From Sphingobacteriales bacterium (GTDB lineage: Bacteria; Bacteroidota; Bacteroidia; Chitinophagales; Chitinophagaceae): a stretch of 64,000 bases of DNA. The notes beneath the pieces were generated by a model, which worked only from the letters and a program-made list of their open reading frames with translations, had not been told where the DNA came from and searched no databases. The stretch is taken from the NCBI GenBank assembly GCA_024640465.1, contig JAHEEX010000001.1:3136-67135 (forward strand). Reading direction: 5' to 3'. A program made the translations under genes and the position numbers. Shown in pieces: positions 36,899-49,226 of this stretch (position 1 is the first letter of the stretch; each line of letters starts with the position of its first letter).

Positions 36899-36977
36899 GC
36901 GCCATGGTTCGTGTCCTCACGAACCATCATCGAAAAAAATTCGTTTTCCGGTTCGTGGAGACACGAACCGGGGCATC
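36899..36977. repeat. REPIN/MITE-like element, copy 3
   Basis: gccatggttcgtgtcctcacgaacc-atcatcgaaaaaaattcgttttcc-ggttcgtggagacacgaaccggggca. Confidence 0.9.
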
Positions 36978-37009: not shown

Positions 37010-37489
37010 TTAAATCTGCCTGGCATTTTCAGCTAAAAATAACCGGAAACTTTCCCTGTAAGAATCACTGATTGGAATTTCGATATTATTGATAAATACG
37101 TTGTATTTATCCAGGGAATCCATATTATAAAAGGAGACGATAAATGACTTATGGACCCGTACAAATTTATATGGCCGCAGGAATGACTCCAGCTTCTTCA
37201 TGGTCTGAAGGGTCAGTATTTTACATTTTGTTGTATAAAGTGATACATAATTGCCTTTACCCTCAATAAAAAGGATATCCTTGACCTGTAATTTGATCAT
37301 TTTATGTTCGTTCTTCACTAAAATATAGTCATTTTGATCATAAACAGGTGCAATCTCACGCTGGCTGTTAAGTCCCAAAACCGAATAGTCGTATTCTCTA
37401 ACCGGCTCCATGGCAGGTTCAAAACCGCCAAATTCCCGGCTTATTGTCCGGGGATTGATATTGCTTTCCAGGGAGATTGCTCGAATCAT
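37010..37489 (-). CDS. LytTR DNA-binding domain protein without a receiver domain
   Basis: DILFIEGKGNYV, TMKKLESFL...FVRVHKSFIV, IPISDSYR. The ~50-aa N-terminus is too short for a receiver domain. Confidence 0.88.
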   Translation of the reverse strand: MIRAISLESNINPRTISREFGGFEPAMEPVREYDYSVLGLNSQREIAPVYDQNDYILVKNEHKMIKLQVKDILFIEGKGNYVSLYTTKCKILTLQTMKKLESFLRPYKFVRVHKSFIVSFYNMDSLDKYNVFINNIEIPISDSYRESFRLFLAENARQI

Positions 37490-37685
37490 ACAACAAAAGA
37501 TTTTTAACTATTTTGAAAATTTCACGTCCCTTAAATTTCCAAAACTTTAAAACAGGCCAATCAGTAAGACCTGAAATTTATATAACAAATTATAAATATT
37601 TTATAAATGATGTAATTTTTATTGTAATATTTAAGCTACTGTATTAAATATCAGCTCTTTTGAATATATTGGATTCAACCTAGCC

Positions 37686-39299
37686 TTATAATTCCTTTTT
37701 CATGAAGCTTGCCGAATAGCCCACTTTTGCCACTACTTCTTCCATGGGAACCTTATTTTTCAATAGTTCCCGGGCATAATTAAGCTTAACGTTCTTCATA
37801 AATTTACCGGGAGTTGTTTCGAAAACCTTGAATTGCCGGTTGAGTTGAACGGTATTGGTATGATAAAATTCTGCCAGTCCCTCAACTGTCATGATATTAT
37901 GCGTCCTGATAGCTTCAGCAATATTTTCCAGGGTTAAGGCAGGGGAAGTTTCCTTTTGGGGGATAATTAGCCCGGCACTTTTCTTATTTAGGACCCGATA
38001 AGCAGCAAAACCCAATCCGGAAACTAAAATAACCAATCCGGCCGCATACAAACCCAATGTTTTCCTTTGCTCCGATTTGTCTGTTTGTATTTTATTCAAA
38101 TACTGAGGCAGGAAATTTTTTACAACGTAATAGCAATCAATAACATAGAGCCCGGAAATGGAACCCGCATAAAGTGAATCATTATACAGGGTTAATGCAC
38201 CCCGGTTGAATTCCACATCTTTTATATAAGGAATAAGTTCTTTTTGTTTATCGGGCAAAACAAACAAACCGTTCTCTGTAGATATCCAGGTATTCCTGAG
38301 GGCATCAATCAATACCATCACGGTAAAAGGCGTTTGTGTAAATTGCTTCAGGGAACTGGAATCCAACCCGTTAATGGTAAATACCCCCTCTTCAGAGGAA
38401 AAGTAAATAGTGTTCTTGAAGGCATAAATATCCCTTATACGGGTATTTAATTTCAGGAGCTGACTCACTTTTTGACCATCATAGACAAAAACCTCCCCTG
38501 TTTGCGTGCAGAAAATAAGCTTGTCGCCTACCACTTCCATATCATAATATTCAAATCCCTGGTGAATGGGCTGCAATTCGAAGTTGCTGTCCAGTCGGTT
38601 GACCGATTTGGTATTCAGAGAATATATACTGTTTCGGTATTCTACCAGCTTACGGGAATAGCCAGCAAAAACGTTATCACCCGATTTAATTATCTGAAAT
38701 TCTCCGGGAGGAATGAATTCATATAGATGATCAGCAGACAAATAGTACTTGTTACGAATTTTACGGAAATACCCGTTTGAATAGCCGGGTTTCATGACTT
38801 TTATCGTATCATTTATATAGATTCCGGAATAACTGCTCACTACTTTTAATCCATCTTCCAGGTAAATATCACGAACAGATATTGTAGCATTAAGATGGTT
38901 ATAATGTTTATTGACTACATATTCAAACAACGATCCTCCTACGGATACAAATAAACGGTCATCAAGATCAACTTTAGATGCATTGGAAATTGAATGCTGC
39001 GGTATCAGGTAAGCCATCGATTCCGCATTAAACTGTTGCCGGTTGGCTAAATAATCACCTTCATAAAATCCCTTTTCATAAAAAACATAAGTTTTTTTAA
39101 ATTTCATCTTTTGCAGCACCCATTTAGAACCCTCTAACTTGTATAAACCGTTTCCTGCTTTTACATAAACTTCATCATTTACAGCAAAGACATTTCTGAC
39201 AGGTGTCGGAAAAACATGTTTAGTAACGAAGTTAGTATCCTGGCTAAATGCAACACAAGGAAACAGAAAAAATAAAAAATATAAGTATATGTTTTTCAA
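37686..39299 (-). CDS. membrane-anchored AraC-type regulator with an extracytoplasmic beta-propeller-like sensor
   Basis: Signal peptide, ~390-aa beta-repeat region (WISTENGL-type blades), one TM helix (LGLYAAGLVILVSGLGFAAY), C-terminal AraC HTH (LNRQFK...TPGKFMKNVKLNYARELL...VGYS). Confidence 0.75.
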   Translation of the reverse strand: MKNIYLYFLFFLFPCVAFSQDTNFVTKHVFPTPVRNVFAVNDEVYVKAGNGLYKLEGSKWVLQKMKFKKTYVFYEKGFYEGDYLANRQQFNAESMAYLIPQHSISNASKVDLDDRLFVSVGGSLFEYVVNKHYNHLNATISVRDIYLEDGLKVVSSYSGIYINDTIKVMKPGYSNGYFRKIRNKYYLSADHLYEFIPPGEFQIIKSGDNVFAGYSRKLVEYRNSIYSLNTKSVNRLDSNFELQPIHQGFEYYDMEVVGDKLIFCTQTGEVFVYDGQKVSQLLKLNTRIRDIYAFKNTIYFSSEEGVFTINGLDSSSLKQFTQTPFTVMVLIDALRNTWISTENGLFVLPDKQKELIPYIKDVEFNRGALTLYNDSLYAGSISGLYVIDCYYVVKNFLPQYLNKIQTDKSEQRKTLGLYAAGLVILVSGLGFAAYRVLNKKSAGLIIPQKETSPALTLENIAEAIRTHNIMTVEGLAEFYHTNTVQLNRQFKVFETTPGKFMKNVKLNYARELLKNKVPMEEVVAKVGYSASFMKKEL

Positions 39300-39442
39300 C
39301 GTTTTACGAAATAATTACATCAAAAATTACAGGCATTATAAAAGAAACATACTTTGTAATTTAATACTTATTATTTAATTTATGGTAACTCTGACTTTTT
39401 AGGAAATTCATGAAATATTTTAATTATTAGATGTCATTTTAA

Positions 39443-39628
39443 ATGACTAAAACCCAAATTGCCACGGTTGTTTTACTAGTTACTTACCTGATCTGGGAAG
39501 TTGTAGTGCAGCTTTGGGCCAGAACAGAAGAAGGCCCGATAATTCGCGTTGATTTGCTGATCATATACCCGGTCCTGGTTATTCTTATCATCATTTCTCT
39601 TTACCAGCGCATCAGAAATAAATTATAA
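39443..39628 (+). CDS. small two-TM membrane protein
   Basis: 61 aa; two hydrophobic helices around a PIIRVDLL loop; A/T-rich leader. Confidence 0.6.
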   Translation: MTKTQIATVVLLVTYLIWEVVVQLWARTEEGPIIRVDLLIIYPVLVILIIISLYQRIRNKL

Positions 39629-39666
39629 GATCAATTTGTAACTACCCATAATGTTAACATTAAAAC

Positions 39667-40317
39667 ATGAAAAAAAATCTCCTGGTTATCGCAACCATCC
39701 TGTTGAGCGGCATCTATGCATGCAATACGACCGAGAAAAAAGAAGAAGCATCTGCTGCTGCAACAACTGAAGCAACCACACCATCTGAACCAACACCGGC
39801 ACCTGAACCTCCTTACGATCCGGACCCTACGGATACCATTCCGGGAAACCTGTATGGCGTAAATTCTTCCTCAAAACAAACGGCAGACTTAGTGAGACTT
39901 ACCTTGCAGGACCTGCATAAGGATGATCTGAAAAATGGCATCATTGATTCTTTCGGCCGGAGGTTTATTTTTTTTGAATATGACCTAAATGATGACGGGA
40001 AAAAAGAAATCTTCGTAGGATTGAGGGGTTCTTATTTCTGCGGATCGGGGGGATGTACCACATACCTGCTGGATAACCAGGGGAATGTGATAACTAAATT
40101 TTCTGTATCAAGAGATGTAGTGATTGATAATAAAGTAACCAATGGATTTAAAGATTTATTCATTTTCAGTGGTGGAAAATTCAGGATCGTGAAATATAAT
40201 GGAAAAACATATCCACCAAACCCATCGACCCTTCCGGCATTGAATGTTGTGCCTGGTGATGATTTACCAAGGGCATTGAACTTTGTACATGAACCATATC
40301 CCTGGTTTACTTTTTGA
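39667..40317 (+). CDS. lipoprotein of unknown function (DLNDDGK.E...CGSGGC family)
   Basis: Lipobox LSGIYAC, Ala/Pro/Thr linker, YDLNDDGKKEIFVGLRGSYFCGSGGCT, YPPNPS. Confidence 0.8.
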   Translation: MKKNLLVIATILLSGIYACNTTEKKEEASAAATTEATTPSEPTPAPEPPYDPDPTDTIPGNLYGVNSSSKQTADLVRLTLQDLHKDDLKNGIIDSFGRRFIFFEYDLNDDGKKEIFVGLRGSYFCGSGGCTTYLLDNQGNVITKFSVSRDVVIDNKVTNGFKDLFIFSGGKFRIVKYNGKTYPPNPSTLPALNVVPGDDLPRALNFVHEPYPWFTF

Positions 40318-40378
40318 GCTTAACCGCGAAGGAACGAAGATTGCTTTTAATTACATTTTCAATCTGTATAATGAGCTT

Positions 40379-40864
40379 ATGAGCGATACAAAAAACTATA
40401 CCCCCATCATAGAAGCCTTGGAGAAAATTTACGGAAAACGAAGCAGCACTGGTTTTGGCAGCGCCGTTTTTTATGATCATTCAAAACAAAATGCCAGTTT
40501 ATCATCTATTGCATTAGATGTTTATAAATTATTCATGGGAGAAAAATGGAAAGCGGAAACCGAATCTACGTGGATGAGTACCTGGAAACTGGTGTATGAG
40601 CGCAGTCCGGGAAAAGCTGCCGATATTTTGAACGAACTAAATAATATACAAGATGCCGATGCCAAAAGATCGGTTCCCTTGCTGACAGAACTTATAGAAA
40701 ATGCAGAACAGGGAAAACTGGCACTGGCAGCTGCCTTCAATCATGCTGACATATCCCAGCTGCAGGTGTATAACGTGGGGGACGGCGAAGCAATGTCCGG
40801 AATTCTGCTCTGCGGATTATTCTCCGATCAAACTGTTTGTTCGGTTATCTGCTTAATGGATTGA
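40379..40864 (+). CDS. cytoplasmic hypothetical protein
   Basis: Start moved to ATG 40379 to avoid overlap; 161 aa with no signal peptide. Confidence 0.7.
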   Translation: MSDTKNYTPIIEALEKIYGKRSSTGFGSAVFYDHSKQNASLSSIALDVYKLFMGEKWKAETESTWMSTWKLVYERSPGKAADILNELNNIQDADAKRSVPLLTELIENAEQGKLALAAAFNHADISQLQVYNVGDGEAMSGILLCGLFSDQTVCSVICLMD

Positions 40865-40873
40865 TCTGTAAAA

Positions 40874-40919
40874 AATTAACCGCAAAGAACAAGTTACCCT
40901 TGAGTCTTTGCGGTTAATT
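40874..40919. repeat. AACCGCAAAG-family palindrome (probable terminator role)
   Basis: aattaaccgcaaaga / tctttgcggttaatt, a perfect 15-bp inverted repeat between convergent genes. Confidence 0.85.
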
Positions 40920-40922
40920 GTA

Positions 40923-42791
40923 TTATCCCTTCAGCCAGGCCTGGTTCAATTTACGCTTAGACTCATCTGTAAACTTATAACCTTGCCCATCTTTATAATT
41001 CAATTTCGCTTTCCCCTTCAATTCTACAATCTGCCCATTTCTTTTTACTTTCATGGTGATAGGCTCATCTTCGTCAATGCCATATCCGGCCATTAAAACA
41101 TTGGTGGGAGTTGAAGCATCTATGGGCGCACCATTGATTTCAATTAATTCATCTCCGTTTTGCACTCCCAATGAACTCAAAAAAACATTAGACGCATCCG
41201 GCATTACGGCAATGGCTTTTTTATTAACGGTATCTATCCCCACATTTATGCCGTTACTGGTCATGAAAACAACCAGGGTTGGTTCTTTAACAACGGCCCT
41301 TGACACACCTACTCTTTTTAAATATGTCTCATAATCTATCGGAGTGCCTTTCACCACATGTTCCTGCAGGAATGCGCCTACTTCAGGATTTGTCATGGCC
41401 GTTATTTCAGGGATCAGGTCTTTATCGTCAAATGGTTTTGTGGGTCCATATTTATTCGACAGCCTGCCCATTAGTTCCAAAAGACCACTTTTGCCACCTG
41501 ATGCATCCCGTAGCATGATATCAATACACATTGCCATCAAGGCACCTTTCTGATATACATTTGGATATTGTGCTTTCATAACAGGATCCAGCACATTTTT
41601 ACTCATTTCTGTAAACGACTGCTTATCGCTATACATTTGCTTTGACAATTTATCTTTCTCGGCCATCTTGGCATAAAACTGGTCTTCAGTCATCAGGCCC
41701 TGGTGCACCTGGAAATGGTTTGCGAAATATTCCGTGAAACCTTCATACATCCAGAGATGTGCAGACATTTTTGGACTGTTGAAATCGAAATCCTGGATCT
41801 CTTTTGAATGCACATTTAATGGTGTGAGGGTATGGAAAAACTCATGTGAGATCACATGGATCAGATCTTTTGCTTTCATATTTTCCATGAATACCGCTGT
41901 AGTGGAGGTATTATGCTCCAGTGCACCGATTCCATGGGCGTCATCTTTTGCATTTGTTGTTATATAAGTGAGTACGGCATATTTTTTAGTGTTATTGATA
42001 TTACCTAAATACGCTTTCTGGGCGCGGATCATTTTTTCCAGGTCGGGCATAAAAGCATTGGCTGTTATGCTTTTATTTCTGGGTGAGTAGACGCTTAACA
42101 ACAAATCCATATTTCCTATCCTGGATGTGGCTATATCCGGTGTGGCATACATGATCGGATGATCAACCAGTTCTGCATACCGTGTAACAGAAAATACATC
42201 CGTTCCTTTAGCAGGGTCAGCATCATCGAGCGAAGAAGATGCCTGCAGGTTTTCCGGATGATTGATGGCAACCTTGTACGTAATATTTGCCTTATCATTG
42301 AAATAACCAACAAACCCGCACATGTTTAACATGAACTGCTTTCCGGCCAGGATATTTGTGCCGGCTGGAGAAAAAATAGTTTTACTGCCTTCCCCAAAAG
42401 CATCGCCGCCTTCTGAATCATAGGTATCGTTCACTTTATAGGTAAGCCGGGCAAGGTTGGAAGCGTTGCTTATCACCCAGGTATTGGAATCTGTCATGGA
42501 TACAGATAGCGAATTGCCTGATTTATCATAGGCCTTAAAATCTTCCACATAGCGGCCATAATCTGCAATGGCATATGTGCCGGGTATGATTTTCGCGAAC
42601 TGGTAAGTAACTGTTGATGTTGAAAAAGAAGGGGCGTTGACTGTTACACTCACCTTGTCGTTCTGCACATTTACAAGGTCAAGTGTGGCGTTTACCATTT
42701 CTGCGCCTGAACTACCCGCAGCCTTACGGGAAGAACTACAGGAGACCAGGAATATTACAGACACCAGGTAAAAAAATAGTTGCTTTCTCAT
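40923..42791 (-). CDS. M61 glycyl aminopeptidase family lipoprotein with PDZ domain
   Basis: Lipobox FLVSC; IIPGTYAIADYG; GALEH; ISHEFFH (HExxH); LWMYEGFTEY; VYQKGAL; G...GDELIEING PDZ. Confidence 0.9.
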   Translation of the reverse strand: MRKQLFFYLVSVIFLVSCSSSRKAAGSSGAEMVNATLDLVNVQNDKVSVTVNAPSFSTSTVTYQFAKIIPGTYAIADYGRYVEDFKAYDKSGNSLSVSMTDSNTWVISNASNLARLTYKVNDTYDSEGGDAFGEGSKTIFSPAGTNILAGKQFMLNMCGFVGYFNDKANITYKVAINHPENLQASSSLDDADPAKGTDVFSVTRYAELVDHPIMYATPDIATSRIGNMDLLLSVYSPRNKSITANAFMPDLEKMIRAQKAYLGNINNTKKYAVLTYITTNAKDDAHGIGALEHNTSTTAVFMENMKAKDLIHVISHEFFHTLTPLNVHSKEIQDFDFNSPKMSAHLWMYEGFTEYFANHFQVHQGLMTEDQFYAKMAEKDKLSKQMYSDKQSFTEMSKNVLDPVMKAQYPNVYQKGALMAMCIDIMLRDASGGKSGLLELMGRLSNKYGPTKPFDDKDLIPEITAMTNPEVGAFLQEHVVKGTPIDYETYLKRVGVSRAVVKEPTLVVFMTSNGINVGIDTVNKKAIAVMPDASNVFLSSLGVQNGDELIEINGAPIDASTPTNVLMAGYGIDEDEPITMKVKRNGQIVELKGKAKLNYKDGQGYKFTDESKRKLNQAWLKG

Positions 42792-42880
42792 AATACCAGT
42801 TGATTAATTTGATTTTAAATTATAAAATACAATTAGCTTATTAATATAAATTTATCCTCTCTGAAAAGTTTAGTCTCTTT

Positions 42881-42913
42881 TATTACATCAAATACCTTTT
42901 TTATTACATCAAA
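42881..42913. promoter_or_regulatory. direct repeat TATTACATCAAA x2 with a 21-bp period, candidate regulator site
   Basis: Exact 12-mers at 42881 and 42902, 90-120 bp upstream of the M61 gene. Confidence 0.5.
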
Positions 42914-43411
42914 CCGAATAATTGTCAGATAAGCCATCGTGTGTCCGGAATAAATGATGATCAAAACTGCCAGCAGGAATGGCTCAAAAATCAGGAAATT
43001 TTTTAGATGAACCAGTAGCAAAATGTTATAATCTAATCACCGATAATGATCTTATTGCATGCTTATTTCCATCTCTTGTAATCTCCCCGAAATCTAATCG
43101 CAAAAAAACACACCATTAATTTTGTTTAATTTTTTGTCATAAAAATGCGCGTATCATAAACAAAAATTAAAAAAATCAATTGACAACTTTGAGAGGTGTA
43201 AGCTTTGAAGGCATTTACCCATGAAAATGGCTGTTTTATCATTATAAATTCAGTCATTCATGGTTTGTAATTAATTTTCAGTGGATATGAATGGTAAAAA
43301 TCTGGTGGACATTTATTAATGATTTAGATATTAAAAAGGCGTTAACCTGGTTTTATAACCCATGAAATTCATGCTCAACCAGCCTGATATATTTTATGGC
43401 TCTGATTTGTA

Positions 43412-43454
43412 AATAAAAGATGTACAATGGACTGGTTTTGTACATCTTTTTATT
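43412..43454. terminator. inverted repeat (terminator or operator) in a long intergenic region
   Basis: aataaaagatgtacaa-tggactggtt-ttgtacatctttttatt. Confidence 0.5.
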
Positions 43455-43581
43455 CAATTTTTTGAATTACTCAGAAGCATTCCTGAGTGTTGGATTACCT
43501 GATAAAATTCAACTTTAGCCCAGGTTTTAAACTGTTTTTTTAATAAATTTTTGATAATTTTTATAACATAAAACATTAAAA

Positions 43582-44100
43582 ATGAAAACCTATAAAATTT
43601 CCTACATTCTGTTTCTCTTTATTTCCTTAACAGGGACATTCGTAAAAGCCCAGGAAGCAGATCCTGCTGTTACAGAAAAGATCAAACAAACCCTTAAAAA
43701 ACTTTATCCTACAACACCGGCCAATGACCGCAATTTCATGTACAATGCTGTAGATCTTAATGACGACGGGAAAAACGAATACCTGGTTGGCCTTACCGGT
43801 AGCACATTTTGCGGATCGGCAGGTTGCAACATGCTTGTTTTAAATAATAAATTTGGGCTCAACACAAAGATGACGATTGTTCAATTTCCGGTTTATGTTG
43901 GACCTCCTGCCAGCAAAGAAGTAACAAAGGGATACAGCAATATTTATGTAAGTACTAAAGGGGTTGGATACGTTAAGATGGCGTGGAATGGCAGTAAATA
44001 CCCGACTAACCCATCTACCGCTCCCAAAATCTCAGAAACTGTTATCAGTGGAAAATATGCTTTTTTGGATGAGAGCAAAAACGCTAAATATACCTTTTAA
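43582..44100 (+). CDS. exported protein, paralogue of 39667-40317
   Basis: Signal peptide (VKA/QE); VDLNDDGKNEYLVGLTGSTFCGSAGCN; YPTNPS. Confidence 0.8.
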   Translation: MKTYKISYILFLFISLTGTFVKAQEADPAVTEKIKQTLKKLYPTTPANDRNFMYNAVDLNDDGKNEYLVGLTGSTFCGSAGCNMLVLNNKFGLNTKMTIVQFPVYVGPPASKEVTKGYSNIYVSTKGVGYVKMAWNGSKYPTNPSTAPKISETVISGKYAFLDESKNAKYTF

Positions 44101-44138
44101 TCAGCGTTATGATTTTTTTTAAAGAAGGGATCATAAAA

Positions 44139-44786
44139 ATGATAATGAAATTGAACATTAGCCTTTTACTGGTGGTTGCCATGATCATATTTTCCTGCAA
44201 TAATGCGAAGCAGGAGGCAGGCAATAAGGAAGAGGAAAAAACTGTGGATATCGTAAGTTCAGTTCCCGCAGTAAATGAAACTGCACCGGTAACAACAACC
44301 ACCCCTTACCAGAATCAGTTGGCATTCGAAAAAATAAAATTCACCATTACATCGCCCCAGTCCGCAACAGCAAATACATTCACTATTGCACCAAGTGGTT
44401 TTACCATATCCAATGATACCCTGACCATGAACTGTGAAGGAATAATCATACAATCAGAAGTGAGCGATATAGATGGAGATAATGCCCCGGAATTGCTGGT
44501 GGTTACACAAAGCGGCCCAGACAAAAAGGGGAAGGCTTATGTGTTTTCGGCTAACAAAAATAAATCCATGAGCATGGTGAGCCTGCCAGATTTCTCCACG
44601 GATGTAAAAAATGCAAAAGGCTATGCCGGTCATGACGAATTTGCTTTTGTAGAAAGTACCTTCTCGCATCGTTTCCCCCTCTATGAAAATGGAAATCCCC
44701 TCAATAAAACCAGGCAGTTCCAGTATAAATTGAAACCGGGTGAAGCGATGAAACAACTCGTTTTGGATAAAACCATTGAGTATTGA
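44139..44786 (+). CDS. pliI: PliI-like lipoprotein (putative i-type lysozyme inhibitor)
   Basis: Lipobox IIFSC; EVSDIDGDNAPEL, SANKNKSMS, KGYAGHDEFAFVE...RFPLY, RQFQYKL.PGEA correspond to the conserved PliI blocks, including GY.GHDEF. Confidence 0.72.
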   Translation: MIMKLNISLLLVVAMIIFSCNNAKQEAGNKEEEKTVDIVSSVPAVNETAPVTTTTPYQNQLAFEKIKFTITSPQSATANTFTIAPSGFTISNDTLTMNCEGIIIQSEVSDIDGDNAPELLVVTQSGPDKKGKAYVFSANKNKSMSMVSLPDFSTDVKNAKGYAGHDEFAFVESTFSHRFPLYENGNPLNKTRQFQYKLKPGEAMKQLVLDKTIEY

Positions 44787-44924
44787 TGTATTTATCGAAA
44801 TGAAAAGGAGATTTGCTGTTCAGCATGGTTAACTAAACTTAGATGAAAAACCATTTTACATTACATTTTGATCATTCTTAGTTAAGCATCATTTTTTTTA
44901 TCAGAAAACAATAAATATCAGGCA

Positions 44925-46193
44925 ATGAAGAAAATTCAATTGTTATTCTTATTCTGGATTACAGCCCTGGCCGGTTTCAGCCAGGGAGCCATAATTTACC
45001 AGGATTGCAATTACCGCGGCAAATCGCAATTACTCAGGCCAGGCCGCTATAACCTCGACCAGATTGGGTTCGGTGCATTCCAGGCATCCTCCATCAAACT
45101 GTATAGTGGTTATAAAGTTGTCATGTACAATAGTAATGAACCCGGGGAAGGTAGCCAGAAAATCAGGCTTACCAATAGTGTTCCGTGCTTTGGATCAGAT
45201 TGGAACGATAAAGTGGGATCCATCGTTGTAGAAGTAGATAATACCGGTGGGGGAAATTATAATCAACCTTCACAACAACCCTCTTATCCGTCTTATGGCA
45301 ACGGTCCACAGGTGATTTTGTATGAAGATTGTAGTCTTCGTGGAAACAACAGGAGCCTTAACCCTGGCAGATATAATAAATGGGAGATGGGTATCAGAAG
45401 CGATGCTTTATCCTCTATCCGTATTCCTTCAGGGTATAGCGTGACAATCTATAAAGATGAAAATTTCCGTGGTGGCTCTCAAACATATTATGGTAATGTA
45501 TACTGCCTTGATGGAGCATGGAATGACCAGGCTACTAGTGTGGTTATCTCAGGACCAGGAAATAATTATAATAATTATAACCCGCCTGTCAACAACAATA
45601 ATAATAACTATACCAGTGCCCGGGATAAAATCCAGGTGTATGATCAATGCGACTATGGAGGTGCCAGCTTTGCATTCAGTCCGGGCAGGTATAACAATAA
45701 CTCTTTGGGTATTGGCAGCGACCGGATATCATCCATCAGGATACCAAGCGGCTTCAGGGTAACTGTTTACCAGAATAAAGACTTTAATGGTTACTCACGT
45801 ACTTTTTATGGTGATGAGTATTGCCTTGACGGACAATGGAACGATCAAATTTCATCCATGATCGTAGACGGACCCGGTACAAATAATTCCAATCCGAATA
45901 ATTCATCCCCAGGTTACAATTATGGTAATAACAATGCCGGGGTAAACGTATATACCGACAGTTATTTTAAAGGAAACCATGCAGTGTATAATGAAGGACG
46001 CCATAACCTGAGAGGTGCTTCAGTAAGTAATAACATTTCTTCAATGAATATTCAGCCGGGATACCGGGTTACCGTTTATGAAGATTTTGATTTCAGGGGA
46101 AGGAGCCAAACCTTTACCTCTTCTGTTGCCAATCTGAATATCTTTGGCTGGAATGATAATATACGTTCAATGGTTGTAACCAGAGATTATTAA
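44925..46193 (+). CDS. secreted protein with four beta/gamma-crystallin domains
   Basis: Signal peptide; four copies of Y.D..Y/F.G ... SS..I..G..V..Y...F.G ... WND...S, separated by N/P/Y/G-rich linkers. Confidence 0.88.
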   Translation: MKKIQLLFLFWITALAGFSQGAIIYQDCNYRGKSQLLRPGRYNLDQIGFGAFQASSIKLYSGYKVVMYNSNEPGEGSQKIRLTNSVPCFGSDWNDKVGSIVVEVDNTGGGNYNQPSQQPSYPSYGNGPQVILYEDCSLRGNNRSLNPGRYNKWEMGIRSDALSSIRIPSGYSVTIYKDENFRGGSQTYYGNVYCLDGAWNDQATSVVISGPGNNYNNYNPPVNNNNNNYTSARDKIQVYDQCDYGGASFAFSPGRYNNNSLGIGSDRISSIRIPSGFRVTVYQNKDFNGYSRTFYGDEYCLDGQWNDQISSMIVDGPGTNNSNPNNSSPGYNYGNNNAGVNVYTDSYFKGNHAVYNEGRHNLRGASVSNNISSMNIQPGYRVTVYEDFDFRGRSQTFTSSVANLNIFGWNDNIRSMVVTRDY

Positions 46194-46211
46194 AATTAAA
46201 ACTAATTAAAC

Positions 46212-46691
46212 ATGCGCGCTTCATATAAAATTATATTCGCTTTTACACTTATCGGGCTATTTGCAGCCTGTAACGGCGGGGAAGAGAAAAAAACGGAAGA
46301 TTCAAAAACACTTGTAGCAGAGAAGAAAAAATTCCCTGAATCAACAGACAGTTTAGCAAATGGCATGCACCCTCTTTATCCAACTGAAGAAAATATCCTG
46401 GGAAAATGGATAATGCCTCATCCAATGGATACAACGGCAAATAAGCACGAGTCGTACATGGAGTTCCTGCCAGACAAATCCGTCAAAGTTGAAGAATACC
46501 CTTATGCAAAACCGGTAAAATGGCAACTGACGGATAATCAATTTATCCTGACACTTGATTTAAATGATCCAAAGGAGCCAGGTAAAACGATGAATGATAC
46601 AATGGTTATTGAAGCTGTTTCAGATACCACCCTTCACTTTTACCATTTACATGAACCGAACTTTTTGATGTACCTGGTGAAGAAAAAATAA
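46212..46691 (+). CDS. lipocalin-like domain lipoprotein
   Basis: Lipobox LFAAC; ILGKW motif followed by a MEF.PD...W.L...L.L pattern. Confidence 0.6.
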   Translation: MRASYKIIFAFTLIGLFAACNGGEEKKTEDSKTLVAEKKKFPESTDSLANGMHPLYPTEENILGKWIMPHPMDTTANKHESYMEFLPDKSVKVEEYPYAKPVKWQLTDNQFILTLDLNDPKEPGKTMNDTMVIEAVSDTTLHFYHLHEPNFLMYLVKKK

Positions 46692-46779
46692 ACATTATTT
46701 TTTACCGCAAAGGAACGAAGAATGCATTGCTGTTCTTCGTTCCTTTGCATTTAAATAAATACCATCTTAATTACCATAT

Positions 46780-47916
46780 ATGAGATTTCTACTTTGGTCA
46801 TGTATATTGTTTATTTCTTTTAGTTTATTATCAGGAATGCCGACAGAAAATTCGGCTGGAATGTATAATTACCCACTGGTTAAATTATTACCAAAAGATT
46901 CAATTGCGGTTCAGACTGATTCCATAATCAAAAAAATAGCACAAACCAACCATTGCCGTGTAATCGGCAAAATTTCAAGACCGGGCCTGTCAATTTTTTA
47001 TAGCGGATATGATGGAAGGAAAGGGGAGAATATAACAAACTTCAATGGACCTATTGAAATTGGTAGTTGTACCAAAATGTTTACTGCCACCTCTATCCTG
47101 CAACTGGTTGAAAAAGGAAATCTTTCTTTACAAACTAAATTGGTGGATGTACTACCAGATATTACTGCATACAGTGGACTTTCCACCATTGATGGAAAAA
47201 ACTATATGGATTCAGTCCGCATTTTCAATTTACTTAATCACTCATCTGGTTTTCCGGATTATTTCATTGATGGAAATAATGATGCTGAAATAGCGTTACA
47301 TGGAGATTCCACCCTCCGTTTTACTTACACTCAACTGCTATCCCTGGCGCAAAAAACCAATAAGCCTTATTTTATCCCTGGTAAAGGGTTTAAATATTCG
47401 AACACTAACTATATTTTGCTGGGTATGATTATTGAAAAAATTACCGGAATGAATTATAGCCAGTACATCCAGCAATACATTTTGAATCCCCTACAAATGA
47501 AACATACTTATTTCGGCTCGAGGAATCCACCCGAAAACGGAACACCAGGTCATTTTAAAGGGAAACTGGTCGTCATGCCCGCTACCCTGGCAGGGCCGGC
47601 GGGTGATATAATTTCCAACCTTGACGATATGCAAACTTTCATTCGGGCCTGGCATAATGGAATATTATTTTCCAGGTCTTCAACCATGTCTGTAGTTAAA
47701 AATGAATACTACCAACCTATGTCCGGCAATTTCATAAAATATGGATTAGGAGTAGTTAACCTTTTAGACCTGAGCCTGGGGCATGCCGGCCAAACATTTG
47801 GCTTTCAGTTTTATGCCGGAAGCACGTCAAATGGTTCCAGCTTTGTTCTTTCTATTGATGATGCTGATGTTTCAATCTGGGATCCGGCTGCATCGATCTC
47901 CGGTTTATTACAATAA
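46780..47916 (+). CDS. serine hydrolase, beta-lactamase / D-Ala-D-Ala peptidase family (S12)
   Basis: GSCTK (SxxK), LLNHSSG, FKYSNTNY (YxN), LGHAG; signal peptide. Confidence 0.9.
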   Translation: MRFLLWSCILFISFSLLSGMPTENSAGMYNYPLVKLLPKDSIAVQTDSIIKKIAQTNHCRVIGKISRPGLSIFYSGYDGRKGENITNFNGPIEIGSCTKMFTATSILQLVEKGNLSLQTKLVDVLPDITAYSGLSTIDGKNYMDSVRIFNLLNHSSGFPDYFIDGNNDAEIALHGDSTLRFTYTQLLSLAQKTNKPYFIPGKGFKYSNTNYILLGMIIEKITGMNYSQYIQQYILNPLQMKHTYFGSRNPPENGTPGHFKGKLVVMPATLAGPAGDIISNLDDMQTFIRAWHNGILFSRSSTMSVVKNEYYQPMSGNFIKYGLGVVNLLDLSLGHAGQTFGFQFYAGSTSNGSSFVLSIDDADVSIWDPAASISGLLQ

Positions 47917-47918
47917 CA

Positions 47919-48041
47919 ATGTCTTTCCTTCCGGATAAAGATGATTTTGGTATTGCCTTTGTACTCTTAAATGTAAAAAAGCATGCAGGTAGCTTTTCAA
48001 TATTACCCTGGATGAATAGTCCGGGTGAGTATCTACGTTGA
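47919..48041 (+). CDS. possible 40-aa small ORF or gene remnant
   Basis: ATG 2 nt after the hydrolase stop: MSFLPDKDDFGIAFVLLNVKKHAGSFSILPWMNSPGEYLR. Confidence 0.25.
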   Translation: MSFLPDKDDFGIAFVLLNVKKHAGSFSILPWMNSPGEYLR

Positions 48042-48263
48042 TCCCTTTGCTGTGGAAAGGAGCAGCTTAACAACGTAATTTTCTGTGCGCAATCAAACAA
48101 TTTCGAAAAAAACCAAAGTTTGAATGTTGAAAAGGGGGAGGGTTAAAAAGCACCTGAAAAATTTCCTTTCGAATAAGAAAAAGCTACATTGTGTCCATAT
48201 ATGGAATAGGCTGTCTCCCTTTATAGAGTCAGCCTATTCCATAAAACGAATAATCAGATTAAC

Positions 48264-48992
48264 TTATCCTCCTGTAATAACTTCATCAGGAATTATGTAA
48301 TGTTCATAATCATTTACGGTAATAATCCATTCACCAGAACTCCTGGTAAATTTAATACTCTTTGCTTCAGGGGCCGTCCACTCGCCATTGTTGAATATCA
48401 GGACGCGTTTCATGGCATTAGGATAAGTAACATGTACTTCTGCCTTTGAACTGGAACTGCGGATTACGCCAAAGTCAGACATGACCGATCCTTTTGGTTC
48501 ATTGCCCATCGAACTCCGAACTTTTCCGGTTGCATGATAAGGTGTACCAGGTACAAGTGCGTCGCCCTGTACGGATCCGTTTGAACCTCCTGTAACACTT
48601 ACAGTCAGCGTAAAAGTGGCTTTTGTATTGTTGCGGGCTGCACTGCGCATCAGGTAAACCCTGATAGTGTATTCTCCGCTTACACCCAGTGTACCGCCAA
48701 AACTATTGGTGCCTTCAGTCTCACCCGCATAGATGGCCTCCCCAGTAGATCCGGGAGCCAACACATTAAAATAGTTCGCGTTAATATTTGATTTCATTTT
48801 CACTTTCAACACCTGGCCTTGCTTTGCATAAACTTTGTAATCGATTGTTTGATCACCCTTTACAGAACTGTTTATGGTTGTTGACGTCTTTCCAGCCGGA
48901 AAGGTAATTTTCCTGGTTTCAATTTGGCCAATAGCCATGATGGGTAAACCAACTAATAAGGCAAGTGAGATTTTACGTACAAAAAGGTTCAT
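48264..48992 (-). CDS. PliG-like secreted protein with an extra C-terminal domain (putative g-type lysozyme inhibitor)
   Basis: Signal peptide from ATG 48992; ITFPAGKTSTTINSSVKGDQTIDY...GQ...V...S...NYFNVLAPG...SGEYTIRVYLMRSAAR is the PliG-type pattern; second domain starts DALVPGTPYHATG. Confidence 0.68.
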   Translation of the reverse strand: MNLFVRKISLALLVGLPIMAIGQIETRKITFPAGKTSTTINSSVKGDQTIDYKVYAKQGQVLKVKMKSNINANYFNVLAPGSTGEAIYAGETEGTNSFGGTLGVSGEYTIRVYLMRSAARNNTKATFTLTVSVTGGSNGSVQGDALVPGTPYHATGKVRSSMGNEPKGSVMSDFGVIRSSSSKAEVHVTYPNAMKRVLIFNNGEWTAPEAKSIKFTRSSGEWIITVNDYEHYIIPDEVITGG

Positions 48993-49157
48993 AATCATAA
49001 CTTTAAAATTGTTAAAATACAGATATTCAATTTCGCTATTCAATACTTAAAATTATAAATTTTACAACTGGCATTTACATTTTAAACATTAATACAAAAT
49101 ATACGACTATTTACATATTAATTTTGGTATTTCGTCAAATATTAAACTAAGAAATCT

Positions 49158-49205
49158 AACCGCAAAGAAGAGAAGAACCATCGTTATCCTTATTTCTTTG
49201 CGGTT
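49158..49205. repeat. AACCGCAAAG-family palindrome
   Basis: aaccgcaaagaa / ttctttgcggtt inverted repeat just upstream of tamB. Confidence 0.8.
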
Positions 49206-49226
49206 TAATCTGTATTTTTGAACCTA

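What the first reader, a model, noticed from the sequence alone, without database searches (positions are those of the whole stretch)
37010..48992. Candidate regulated cell-wall protection (enzyme-inhibitor) island
Seen in sequence: a ~12 kb block between MscS and tamB, bounded by repeat elements, encoding two unusual regulators and a run of mostly exported small proteins. By motif these are PliI-like, PliG-like, two CGSxGC paralogues, a four-domain beta/gamma-crystallin, a lipocalin-like lipoprotein, an S12 serine hydrolase and an M61 peptidase. Established: PliI and PliG are periplasmic inhibitors of animal i- and g-type lysozymes, characterised mainly in Proteobacteria, and the beta/gamma-crystallin fold is also used by the Streptomyces metalloprotease inhibitor SMPI. 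Inference: this may be a co-regulated kit that neutralises peptidoglycan-attacking enzymes from grazers, hosts or competitors, with the unnamed genes as new inhibitor families. I know of no described Bacteroidota locus with this combination, but could not search.
Basis: partly seen in the sequence, partly recalled or inferred. Interest (0 to 1): 0.78.

Follow-up and report, generated by a model that had tools for sequence, protein, structure and literature searches.

The report
Conserved cluster of cell-wall-enzyme inhibitor-like genes
A freshwater-sediment Bacteroidota bacterium carries a conserved cluster of exported proteins, two of them relatives of known lysozyme blockers; gene fusions in other bacteria link these to an unstudied family that may be a new kind of cell-wall protector, but nothing has been tested at the bench.

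Summary
Between MscS and tamB lie 12 real genes, nearly all exported, in at least five transcription units.

- **PliG-like:** confirmed. The N-domain matches solved PliG (E 6e-16; family profile 4e-29), with an unknown C-terminal domain added.
- **PliI-like:** a remote but real superfamily member. It is below Pfam threshold, yet PliI is the top PDB profile hit (E 0.003) and the only compact fold match (TM 0.62, rmsd 2.8 Å). Its inhibitory SGxY loop is replaced.
- **CGSxGC pair:** this is Pfam UCP028175, confidently folded with no solved relative.

New here: of 236 sampled relatives of the PliI-like domain, 43 are fused to PliG domains, 7 to MliC, 2 to LprI and 3 to UCP028175. A PliG domain is fused or nearby in 12 of 54 loci from several phyla.

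The core (UCP028175, PliI-like, crystallin, ±M61) recurs in diverged genomes. A Sphingobacteriales MAG has UCP→crystallin→PliI-like→PliG→S12 on one strand. S12, PliG and YkuD vary between close relatives.

The repeats are genome-wide REP-like elements, not borders. A conserved ATTACA-pair motif marks only the left half.

A peptidoglycan-hydrolase inhibitor kit is the best reading (about 0.5). Function and co-regulation are untested.

The parts
34460..36820 (+). Large MscS-family mechanosensitive channel (786 aa), left neighbour of the block
   Evidence: Pfam MS_channel_2nd 80 bits, MS_channel_3rd 31.6 bits. Syntenic in L005/L006. An MscS gene sits between UCP028175 and the PliI-like gene in L022/L023 and next to the cluster in L025.
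37010..37489 (-). LytTR-only DNA-binding protein (159 aa, no receiver domain)
   Evidence: Pfam LytTR 70.2 bits, residues 63-151. Orthologues at the same place in L005, L006.
37593..37628 (-). Conserved cis motif ATTACAATAAAAATTACATCA, about 105-125 bp upstream of the LytTR gene
   Evidence: (I1). The same motif is at the same place in L005 (3523) and L006 (3944).
37686..39299 (-). Membrane-anchored one-component regulator (537 aa): signal peptide, exported propeller-like domain, TM helix, cytoplasmic AraC-type HTH
   Evidence: Pfam HTH_18 28.7 bits at 475-529 (below cutoff 33.6). NCBIfam PorZ-like stretch 213-314, E 3.8e-6. 70-75% identical orthologues in L005, L006, L014. Topology read from the sequence.
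39314..39334 (+). Conserved cis motif ATTACATCAAAAATTACA between the 537-aa regulator gene and the 61-aa/UCP028175 operon
   Evidence: Conserved in L005 (5242), L006 (5661), L014 (19217).
39443..39628 (+). Small two-TM membrane protein (61 aa)
   Evidence: 69-79% identical orthologues at the same position in L005, L006, L014. No Pfam family.
39667..40317 (+). UCP028175 (CGSGGC) lipoprotein paralogue, 216 aa
   Evidence: 38% identical to the 172-aa paralogue. Orthologues marked PF27665. Lipobox IYAC read from the sequence. Orthologue heads the cluster in L025.
40379..40864 (+). Cytoplasmic protein of unknown family (161 aa from Met33 of the ORF), flanked by REP-like palindromes
   Evidence: No Pfam or PDB match. 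67% identical orthologues lie between MscS and LytTR in L005/L006, and after S12 in L025.
40923..42791 (-). M61 metallopeptidase lipoprotein with C-terminal PDZ (622 aa)
   Evidence: Pfam Peptidase_M61_N 128.6 bits, Peptidase_M61 65.2 bits; PDZ_6 19.5 bits, below cutoff 27. HEFFH in the sequence. Kept next to crystallin/UCP028175/PliI-like in L016 and L018.
42882..42911 (+). Direct repeat ATTACATCA-N12-ATTACATCA (21-bp period), 90-120 bp upstream of M61
   Evidence: (D12). It is the only exact repeat pair with a 20-22-bp period in the genome. A related element sits at the same place in L005 (8269) and L014 (16237).
43582..44100 (+). UCP028175 (CGSAGC) secreted paralogue, 172 aa
   Evidence: Homologues all marked PF27665. 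AF2 pLDDT 88.7, no PDB fold match. Adjacent to a PliI-like gene in L019/L020; fused to it in L061, P0308, P0342, P0378.
44145..44786 (+). PliI-superfamily lipoprotein (213 aa from Met13 of the ORF) with a replaced inhibitory loop (SGPDKKGK instead of SGSGSY)
   Evidence: Family profile: top PDB hit is PliI-Ah 3od9, E 0.0034. AF2 pLDDT 85; Foldseek 3od9/4pj2 TM 0.61-0.63, rmsd 2.7-2.8 Å. Pfam PliI only 14.7 bits. Fusions to PliG, MliC, LprI.
44925..46193 (+). Secreted four-domain beta/gamma-crystallin (422 aa)
   Evidence: Pfam Crystall 86.1, Crystall_3 39.7, Inhibitor_I36 32.3 bits. Four aligned domains. Adjacent to the PliI-like gene in L008/L028, L016, L018, L025, L031.
46212..46691 (+). Lipoprotein, weakly lipocalin-like (159 aa)
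   Evidence: Pfam Lipocalin_3 18.1 bits vs cutoff 20.2. Orthologues only in close relatives L005, L006, L007, L014.
46780..47916 (+). Secreted S12 / beta-lactamase-family serine hydrolase (378 aa), variable member
   Evidence: Pfam Beta-lactamase 141.3 bits. SCTK and YSN motifs in the sequence. Present in L014, L025 (E 7e-134), L008 (50% identical); absent in L005-L007, L016, L018.
48264..48998 (-). Two-domain PliG-family secreted protein (244 aa from Met16 of the ORF), variable member
   Evidence: PDB 4dzg E 6.1e-16, E. coli PliG 1.5e-4. Profile 4.4e-29 and 6e-12. SGEY aligns with SGKY of PliG. C-terminal ~100 aa has no known family. More than 1,230 homologues with this architecture.
49218..54215 (+). 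tamB, right neighbour of the block
   Evidence: Orthologues marked PF04357 TamB. A PliG gene or the core cluster abuts tamB in G002, L014, L016, L018.

Best explanation
This is a lineage-conserved cluster of cell-envelope genes next to tamAB. Its exported products most likely form a periplasmic shield against peptidoglycan-cutting enzymes that reach the wall from outside. Such enzymes would be lysozymes of grazers or animals, or muramidase/amidase effectors of competitors.

Shown:
- One product has a genuine PliG domain.
- One is a remote PliI-superfamily lipoprotein.
- The PliI-like domain family is repeatedly fused or adjacent to PliG, MliC, LprI and UCP028175 domains in other bacteria.
- The UCP028175 / PliI-like / crystallin core recurs in diverged genomes.

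Inferred:
- Each protein binds a hydrolase and blocks its active site with an exposed loop, as PliG and PliI do.
- The replaced loop of the PliI-like protein gives it a target other than i-type lysozyme.
- UCP028175 is a further inhibitor module.
- The LytTR protein and the membrane-anchored AraC-type protein control at least the left half, through the conserved ATTACA-pair sites.

The roles of the crystallin, the lipocalin-like protein, S12 and M61 stay open.
For: - PliG domain: E 6.1e-16 to PDB 4dzg, and profile E 4.4e-29. SGEY aligns with the SGKY motif.
- PliI-like family: PliI-Ah is the top PDB profile hit, E 0.0034. It is also the only compact Foldseek match: TM 0.61-0.63 on the target, rmsd 2.7-2.8 Å, prob 1.00.
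- 14 of 34 long family members match Pfam PliI at E<=0.001; one member seen individually (P0279) scored 31.2 bits, above the 27-bit cut-off.
- Fusions among 236 sampled family members: 43 with a PliG domain, 7 with MliC, 2 with LprI, 3 with UCP028175.
- Direct PDB hits of fusion proteins to PliG (3e-15), PliI and MliC.
- Neighbourhoods: a PliG domain is fused or within about 1 kb in 12 of 54 loci from Verrucomicrobiota, Proteobacteria and Bacteroidota.
- UCP028175 is adjacent to the PliI-like gene in L019/L020, is separated from it only by an MscS gene in L022/L023, and is fused to it in L061.
- L025 has UCP→crystallin→PliI-like→PliG→S12 on one strand.
- The whole block is syntenic in L005, L006, L014, and the core in L016, L018.
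- All products except LytTR and the 161-aa protein carry signal peptides or lipoboxes (sequence).
- Published: the PliI loop (S104) inserts into the lysozyme active site. The same fold is used by X-Tfi(XAC2610) and Tsi1 against bacterial PG hydrolases (PMC10933484).
- Conserved ATTACA-pair motifs sit upstream of LytTR, the 61-aa/UCP028175 operon and M61.
Against: - No activity has been measured, and no RNA data exist for this organism.
- The window's PliI-like protein lacks the SGxY loop, with Ser104 replaced by Pro. It also fails the Pfam PliI cutoff.
- UCP028175 has no structural relative, and its profile similarity to the PliI-like family is weak (hhalign E 0.016).
- PliG and S12 are absent from close relatives that keep the rest (L005-L007).
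- The 213-aa orthologue is in only 4 of 61 genomes of the genus, so the kit is dispensable.
- In many distant genomes the PliI-like gene stands alone, with no cluster.
- The cis motif is absent before the CGS172 operon and before PliG.
Confidence: 0.5

Rival explanations
1. The proteins are regulators of the cell's own wall enzymes. The PliG-like, PliI-like and UCP028175 proteins would bind and restrain endogenous peptidoglycan enzymes: the neighbouring S12 DD-peptidase-like hydrolase, YkuD L,D-transpeptidase, M61 peptidase, or lytic transglycosylases. The cluster would then be a wall-remodelling module, not a defence against foreign enzymes.
For: - Wall- or peptide-active enzymes are consistently nearby: S12 in the window, L014, L025, L008; YkuD in L005-L007, L014; M61 in all same-genus versions.
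- The own-genome paralogue of the PliI-like gene (C33:351-983) lies right beside a different beta-lactamase-family gene.
- The cluster lies beside tamAB and MscS, which are envelope-maintenance genes.
- Tsi1, with the PliI-like fold, inhibits a peptidase rather than a glycosidase (PMC10933484).
- From my own knowledge: Ivy and MliC homologues have been reported to inhibit bacterial lytic transglycosylases.
Against: - The strongest links of the PliI-like domain are to PliG, MliC and LprI, families known for blocking foreign lysozymes.
- Beta-lactamase-family genes lie near the PliI-like gene in only 3 of 54 wider loci. That is about the chance rate for such a common family (about 10 copies in this genome).
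- The enzymes vary between close relatives while the inhibitor-like core stays.
Confidence: 0.25
2. The proteins are calcium-binding structural or stress proteins of the envelope. The four-domain crystallin (like Protein S of Myxococcus) and the DxDxDGxxE-motif proteins (UCP028175, PliI-like) would bind Ca2+ and strengthen or coat the envelope under stress. The resemblance to lysozyme inhibitors would then be fold reuse without inhibitor function.
For: - Partial N/D-N/D-x-x-S/T-S motifs are present in two crystallin domains (NDQATS, NDQISS).
- FG-GAP-like motifs occur in both UCP028175 and the PliI-like family (Pfam FG-GAP_3 weak hit; YesW/YesX hits).
- The inhibitory SGxY loop is lost in the window's protein.
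- The crystallin–PliI-like pair is the most conserved adjacency.
Against: - This does not explain the repeated fusion to four lysozyme-inhibitor families or the intact PliG domain.
- Ca2+ binding and inhibition are not exclusive. From my own knowledge, X-Tfi(XAC2610) has a Ca2+ site and is an inhibitor.
Confidence: 0.13
3. There is no shared function. The site upstream of tamB would be a hotspot where unrelated accessory envelope genes accumulate, and the apparent theme would be coincidence.
For: - There are at least five transcription units on both strands.
- Content next to tamB varies between relatives: PliG alone in G002; YkuD, S12 and PliG present or absent.
- The 161-aa gene changes place within the cluster.
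- The distribution is rare and patchy.
Against: - The core genes stay together in genomes where their proteins are only 37-62% identical and the gene order differs (L016, L018, L025).
- In L025 they sit on one strand with short gaps.
- Fusions join three of the families in single proteins.
Confidence: 0.08

Closest known systems
PliG (periplasmic inhibitor of g-type lysozyme; E. coli YcgK, Aeromonas hydrophila PliG; PDB 4dy3, 4g9s, 4dzg)
   Same: The N-terminal 110 residues of the 244-aa protein align over the full PliG domain (E 6e-16; profile 4e-29). This includes the SG-x-Y position (SGEY vs SGKY). The protein has a signal peptide.
   Different: It carries an extra conserved C-terminal domain of about 100 residues with no known family. 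This two-domain form is itself widespread (more than 1,230 homologues). Most of its relatives have DGEY rather than SGxY. The host is a Bacteroidota bacterium rather than a proteobacterium. Inhibition is untested.
PliI (periplasmic inhibitor of i-type lysozyme, Aeromonas hydrophila; PDB 3od9, 4pj2; Pfam PF16743)
   Same: Same fold in the model (TM 0.62 on PliI, rmsd 2.8 Å, about 20% identity). Same DLNGDxxPE strand-loop region in the profile alignment. Exported.
   Different: The domain is larger (about 160 vs 120 residues) and it is a lipoprotein. It is below the Pfam threshold. The inhibitory loop SGSGSY (Ser104) is replaced by SGPDKKGK. A paralogue elsewhere in the genome (C33:351-983) and 19 sampled relatives keep SGxY.
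X-Tfi(XAC2610) of Xanthomonas citri and Tsi1 of Pseudomonas aeruginosa (immunity proteins with the PliI-like topology)
   Same: Lipoprotein or periplasmic proteins with the same sheet topology as PliI and a loop that plugs a peptidoglycan hydrolase (PMC10933484). From my own knowledge, X-Tfi also has an FG-GAP-like Ca2+ motif.
   Different: Those genes sit beside their cognate secreted effector. No effector or secretion-system gene is seen in this block or in the related loci. Neither appeared among the 50 matches listed from the Foldseek search.
MliC/PliC and LprI lysozyme inhibitors
   Same: They occur as domains fused to the PliI-like domain in 7 and 2 of the sampled relatives. One fusion (P0325) keeps the MliC SGSKY and WSKG motifs.
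   Different: No MliC or LprI domain is encoded in the window itself.
SMPI (Streptomyces metalloproteinase inhibitor, Pfam Inhibitor_I36) and microbial beta/gamma-crystallins such as Protein S
   Same: The 422-aa protein matches Crystall (86 bits) and Inhibitor_I36 (32 bits) and lies beside an M61 metallopeptidase in all same-genus versions.
   Different: It has four tandem domains rather than one. The I36 hit overlaps the Crystall hit (the two fold families are related, from my own knowledge) and says nothing about a reactive site. SMPI targets thermolysin-like enzymes, not M61.
LytTR regulatory systems (HdrRM, BrsRM of Streptococcus mutans; from my own knowledge)
   Same: A LytTR-only regulator without a receiver domain is encoded next to a membrane protein. 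Direct-repeat sites lie upstream of its own gene and of target genes.
   Different: The membrane partner here is itself a DNA-binding AraC-type protein with a large exported domain. The repeat spacing is 12 bp at two sites and 21 bp at one. Nothing has been tested.

Membership tests
PliG (g-type lysozyme inhibitor) | Sequence similarity over the whole ~110-residue PliG domain to solved PliG proteins | tested here: met
   phmmer E 6.1e-16 to 4dzg and 1.5e-4 to 4dxz/4dy3. Family profile E 4.4e-29 and 6e-12.
PliG (g-type lysozyme inhibitor) | Conserved SG(x)xY-type motif (recalled from the PliG structure papers; not re-read here) | tested here: met
   SGEY aligns with SGKY of A. hydrophila and E. 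coli PliG. In most two-domain relatives the Ser is Asp.
PliG (g-type lysozyme inhibitor) | Export to the periplasm | tested here: met
   N-terminal hydrophobic signal MNLFVRKISLALLVGLPIMAIGQ read from the sequence. No predictor was run.
PliG (g-type lysozyme inhibitor) | Inhibits g-type lysozyme | not testable with these tools
   Needs purified protein and an enzyme assay.
PliI (Pfam PF16743) | Score above the Pfam gathering threshold | tested here: not met
   14.7 bits vs 27, E 0.026. Fourteen of 34 longer relatives match Pfam PliI at E<=0.001; of those seen individually only P0279 (31.2 bits) clears the 27-bit cut-off, P0325 (26.6) and P0348 (24.7) do not.
PliI (Pfam PF16743) | PliI fold | tested here: met
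   AF2 model pLDDT 85 (core above 93). Foldseek 3od9/4pj2 TM 0.61-0.63 on the target, rmsd 2.7-2.8 Å over about 106 columns, prob 1.00. Foldseek E is only 0.03-0.1. The profile's top PDB hit is 3od9, E 0.0034.
PliI (Pfam PF16743) | SGxY inhibitory loop with the active-site-inserting Ser104 | tested here: not met
   The aligned loop reads SGPDKKGK, with Pro at the Ser104 position. The paralogue on C33 has AGSGSYG.
PliI (Pfam PF16743) | Inhibits i-type lysozyme | not testable with these tools
   Needs an assay.
UCP028175 (Pfam PF27665) | Match to the family model | tested here: inconclusive
   The model is not in the local Pfam copy. All 65 homologues of the 172-aa protein, and the orthologues of both paralogues, carry the precomputed PF27665 mark.
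Beta/gamma-crystallin | Pfam Crystall match and repeated double-Greek-key domains | tested here: met
   86.1 bits vs 25. Four aligned domains with conserved Y/F..G, S and W-N-D positions.
Inhibitor_I36 (SMPI) | Specific match and reactive-site loop | tested here: inconclusive
   32.3 bits vs 21.1, but the hit overlaps the stronger Crystall hit on the same stretch. The reactive site was not examined.
Peptidase M61 | M61 N-terminal and catalytic domains with HExxH | tested here: met
   128.6 and 65.2 bits. HEFFH in the sequence.
Peptidase S12 / beta-lactamase family | Pfam Beta-lactamase match with SxxK and YxN motifs | tested here: met
   141.3 bits. SCTK and YSN read from the sequence.
Genomic island (horizontally acquired block) | Deviant composition, integrase or tRNA at a border, flanking direct repeats specific to the block | tested here: not met
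   GC 38.4% vs 41.5%. No tRNA. No integrase among the ORFs. The flanking palindromes are a genome-wide REP-like family. The block is nevertheless accessory: the 213-aa orthologue is in 4 of 61 genomes of the genus.

The most novel reading that the evidence does not exclude
UCP028175 (the CGSxGC family) is a previously unrecognised family of proteinaceous inhibitors of lysozymes or other peptidoglycan hydrolases. The loop-substituted branch of the PliI superfamily found here has a new target specificity. Together with PliG, MliC and LprI domains, they form a modular toolkit that bacteria of several phyla combine, as neighbouring genes or as single fused proteins, to block several wall-cutting enzymes at once.
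Probability: 0.3. Interest if true: 0.75.

Novelty: new variant of a known kind. Interest (0 to 1): 0.6.

Why it matters
Proteinaceous lysozyme inhibitors are known mainly as single genes in Proteobacteria associated with animals. Three things follow if this cluster works as proposed.

- **Wider use of the defence.** The same defence would be used, in multi-gene and fused forms, by free-living sediment and freshwater bacteria of Bacteroidota, Verrucomicrobiota and others. There the attackers are more likely grazers, invertebrates or rival bacteria.
- **Concrete candidates.** The fusion map gives cheap candidates for new inhibitor families and specificities: UCP028175, the loop-substituted PliI-like branch, and the unknown C-terminal domain of the two-domain PliG proteins. 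Each can be tested with purified protein and commercial lysozymes. Such inhibitors are also useful as affinity reagents for sorting lysozyme types (PMC10609593).
- **Regulator pair.** The LytTR-only protein and the membrane-anchored AraC-type protein, with conserved paired sites, could serve as a small model for envelope-stress sensing in Bacteroidota.

Tried and rejected
- **Island borders.** I rejected the repeats as borders. The same palindrome family occurs inside the block and about 100 times per orientation in the genome.
- **UCP028175 as a diverged PliI fold.** Not supported. hhalign against the PliI-like family gave E 0.016 and 2.8% probability. The profile has no PDB hit. Foldseek finds only partial propeller-blade matches.
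- **Sigma-70 promoter and terminator scan.** Uninformative: 35 promoter-like sites against 42 expected.
- **Transcript evidence.** Only DNA metagenomes from sediment, freshwater and biofilm hold this sequence.
- **Rfam and tRNA scans of the block.** Nothing found.
- **The 161-aa cytoplasmic protein and the PliG C-terminal domain.** No Pfam or PDB relatives.
- **Order-level co-occurrence statistics.** Not useful, because both families are too rare: 9 of 201 and 2 of 201 genomes.
- **MscS linkage.** Tight in L022/L023 and seen in L025, L060 and the window. But 3 of 54 wider loci is near chance for a multi-copy family, so I left it as a side note.
- **S12 as the cognate partner of the PliI-like protein.** The linkage holds only within the Bacteroidota branch.
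- **Literature.** Nothing on UCP028175 or on PliG/PliI/MliC in Bacteroidetes in the held library. That library lacks most subscription journals, so this does not prove novelty.

Full report
**What is there**

The stretch 37010-49043 holds 12 credible genes between a large MscS channel gene (34460-36820) and tamB (49218-54215). In order, they are:
- a LytTR-only protein (−)
- a 537-aa protein with a signal peptide, an exported domain, one TM helix and a C-terminal AraC-type HTH (−)
- a 61-aa two-TM protein (+)
- a 216-aa lipoprotein with CGSGGC (+)
- a 161-aa cytoplasmic protein (+)
- an M61 peptidase with PDZ (−)
- a 172-aa secreted protein with CGSAGC (+)
- a 213-aa lipoprotein (+)
- a 422-aa crystallin (+)
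- a 159-aa lipoprotein (+)
- a 378-aa S12 hydrolase (+)
- a 244-aa PliG-like protein (−)

Pfam confirms LytTR, M61, Beta-lactamase and Crystall well above threshold. HTH_18, Lipocalin_3 and PliI fall below it. The crystallin consists of four homologous ~85-residue domains. The two CGSxGC proteins are 38% identical and are the only copies in the genome. Their orthologues carry the precomputed mark PF27665 UCP028175.

The genome is a 3.8-Mb, 330-contig assembly. The sequence is found only in sediment, freshwater and biofilm DNA metagenomes.

**The repeats are not borders**

The palindromes at both ends belong to a REP-like family (AACCGCAAAG / CTTTGCGGTT). This family also lies inside the block and occurs about 100 times per orientation in the genome. 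Block GC is 38.4% against 41.5% for the genome. There is no tRNA, integrase or Rfam hit. So the block is not an island in the transfer sense. It is accessory, though: the 213-aa orthologue occurs in 4 of 61 genomes of the genus, and the PliG gene in 2 of 25.

**PliG-like**

Residues 41-150 match the solved A. hydrophila PliG (4dzg) at E 6.1e-16 and the E. coli and Salmonella proteins at about 1.5e-4. SGEY aligns with their SGKY. A profile of 29 homologues raises this to 4.4e-29 and 6e-12. The remaining ~100 residues form a conserved domain (GTPYHATG…DFGVIR…NDYEHY.IP) with no Pfam or PDB relative. More than 1,230 proteins share this two-domain form.

**PliI-like**

The single sequence gives only 14.7 bits to Pfam PliI and no PDB hit. 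A profile of 38 homologues puts PliI-Ah (3od9) first in the PDB at E 0.0034. The aligned region runs from the DLNGDxxPE motif through the inhibitory loop.

The AlphaFold model is confident (pLDDT 85, core above 93). In Foldseek, PliI (3od9, 4pj2) is the only compact match: TM 0.61-0.63 on the target, rmsd 2.7-2.8 Å, about 20% identity, probability 1.00. The other hits are propellers at 8-9 Å. The Foldseek E-values themselves are weak (0.03-0.1).

Published work places Ser104 of the SGSY loop in the lysozyme active site (PMC10933484). In the window's protein that loop reads SGPDKKGK, with Pro at the Ser104 position. A paralogue elsewhere in the genome (C33:351-983) keeps AGSGSYG, as do 19 of the 185 sampled relatives in which the preceding DxDGDxxPE motif could be located. 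I therefore call it a remote member of the PliI superfamily, not a PliI.

**Fusions (new here)**

The family has about 1,556 representative clusters. Of 236 sampled members:
- 43 carry a PliG-like domain. The E-value to the window's own PliG domain reaches 1e-27. One fusion hits PDB PliG at 3e-15. One member, P0415, carries the complete two-domain form.
- Among the 34 long members without PliG, 14 match Pfam PliI, 7 match MliC and 2 match LprI.
- P0325 hits both PliI and MliC structures and keeps the MliC motifs.
- Three members, plus the ORF in L061, carry an N-terminal UCP028175 domain.

So the PliI-like domain is joined, in single proteins, to three established lysozyme-inhibitor families. 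UCP028175 takes the same N-terminal place as most PliG-like domains and, where coordinates were seen, MliC.

**Neighbourhoods**

| Locus or set | Arrangement |
|---|---|
| L005, L006, L014 (close relatives, proteins 63-87% identical) | Whole block from MscS to the lipocalin-like gene kept |
| L005-L007 | Right end carries YkuD instead of S12 and PliG |
| L014 | Right end carries YkuD, PliG and S12 |
| L016, L018 (same genus, more diverged) | tamB(−) M61(−) then crystallin→UCP028175→PliI-like |
| G002 | A one-domain PliG directly before tamB |
| L025 (Sphingobacteriales MAG) | MscS(−) then UCP028175→crystallin→PliI-like→two-domain PliG→S12→161-aa protein, one strand, short gaps |
| L008/L028, L031 (two Chitinophagaceae MAGs) | Crystallin→PliI-like; L008/L028 also has the S12 orthologue |
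| L019/L020 (UCP028175 about 50% identical) | PliI-like→UCP028175 |
| L022/L023 (UCP028175 about 50% identical) | UCP028175→MscS→PliI-like |

Across 54 loci from several phyla, a PliG domain is fused or within about 1 kb in 12. This genome has one PliG gene in 3.8 Mb, so that is far above chance. Many distant members stand alone.

**Regulation**

No RNA data exist. Two cis elements stand out:
- The hexamer pair ATTACAnnAAAAATTACA lies at 37593-37628 (−) and at 39314-39334 (+). This places one copy on each side of the 537-aa regulator gene, upstream of the LytTR gene and of the 61-aa/UCP028175 operon respectively.
- A 21-bp-period repeat, ATTACATCA-N12-ATTACATCA, lies 90-120 bp upstream of M61.

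Four of the genome's 101 copies of the 9-mer fall in this 12 kb. The 21-bp pair is unique in the genome. The elements are kept at the same places in L005, L006 and L014. No such site precedes the CGS172 operon or PliG. This fits control of the left half by one of the two regulators, but it is inference.

**Mechanism and rivals**

My best reading (about 0.5) is a periplasmic kit of hydrolase blockers. In this reading:
- The PliG domain acts as in PliG.
- The PliI-like lipoprotein uses the topologically equivalent but chemically different loop against another target.
- UCP028175 is a candidate further inhibitor.

Rivals:
- Control of the cell's own S12, YkuD, M61 or lytic transglycosylases (0.25). 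Enzyme neighbours and a second PliI-like/beta-lactamase-family pair on C33 support this.
- Ca2+-binding structural envelope proteins (0.13).
- An unrelated gene hotspot beside tamB (0.08).

UCP028175 folds confidently (pLDDT 88.7) but has no solved relative. Its similarity to the PliI-like family is weak.

**Comparison and novelty**

The parts belong to, or border on, known kinds: PliG, the PliI superfamily, crystallins, M61 and S12. Four things appear undescribed in the library I could search:
- the loop-substituted PliI-like branch
- its systematic fusion and adjacency with PliG, MliC, LprI and UCP028175
- the conserved multi-gene form in Bacteroidota
- the regulator pair with its paired sites

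I rate this a new variant of a known kind with moderate-to-good interest. The candidates are cheap to test, but nothing here measures function.

Noticed in passing
window 40379-40864 (+); L005 2347-2817; L006 2757-3245; L025 8195-8674: A 161-aa cytoplasmic protein with no known family. It ends ...CSVICLMD and is flanked here by REP-like palindromes. It travels with the cluster but sits at different places: after UCP028175 here, between MscS and LytTR in close relatives, and after S12 in a Sphingobacteriales MAG.
   Followed up: partly
L022 5892-9630; L023 233-3971: In a distant Bacteroidota metagenome contig, a large MscS-type channel gene sits between UCP028175 and the PliI-like gene, and its end overlaps the start of the latter. 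MscS genes also adjoin the cluster in the window, L025 and L060. A link between osmotic release valves and wall protection is conceivable, but the wider count (3 of 54 loci) is near chance.
   Followed up: partly
genome contig C33:351-2179 (−): A second PliI-like lipoprotein (210 aa, 33% identical) keeps the canonical AGSGSYG loop. It lies directly downstream of a 378-aa beta-lactamase-family gene unrelated to the window's S12.
   Followed up: partly
window 42792-43581: An unusually long (790 bp), AT-rich (about 30% GC) intergenic region lies between M61 and the CGS172 operon. Relatives also keep it long (830-1,250 bp). It holds the 21-bp-period repeat and a hairpin at 43415-43450. No Rfam match.
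   Followed up: partly
window 36901-36974, 40320-40347, 40869-40925, 46700-46755, 49148-49214: A genome-wide REP-like palindrome family (AACCGCAAAG…CTTTGCGGTT, about 100 copies per orientation) sits at gene ends. The copy at 46700-46755 may act as a terminator between the lipocalin-like gene and S12.
   Followed up: partly
L005 3609-5227, 6334-8174 and 13756-18746; L006 13765-19072: In these metagenome contigs the regulator and M61 genes (L005) and tamB (L005 and L006) are split into several ORFs. This is probably frameshift noise in the assemblies rather than pseudogenes.
   Followed up: no
window 48264-48560 (C-terminal half of the PliG-like gene): A conserved ~100-residue domain (GTPYHATG, DFGVIR, NDYEHY.IP..VI.GG) of unknown fold follows the PliG domain in more than 1,000 proteins from many phyla. 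NCBI names some of them 'PPC domain-containing protein'.
   Followed up: partly
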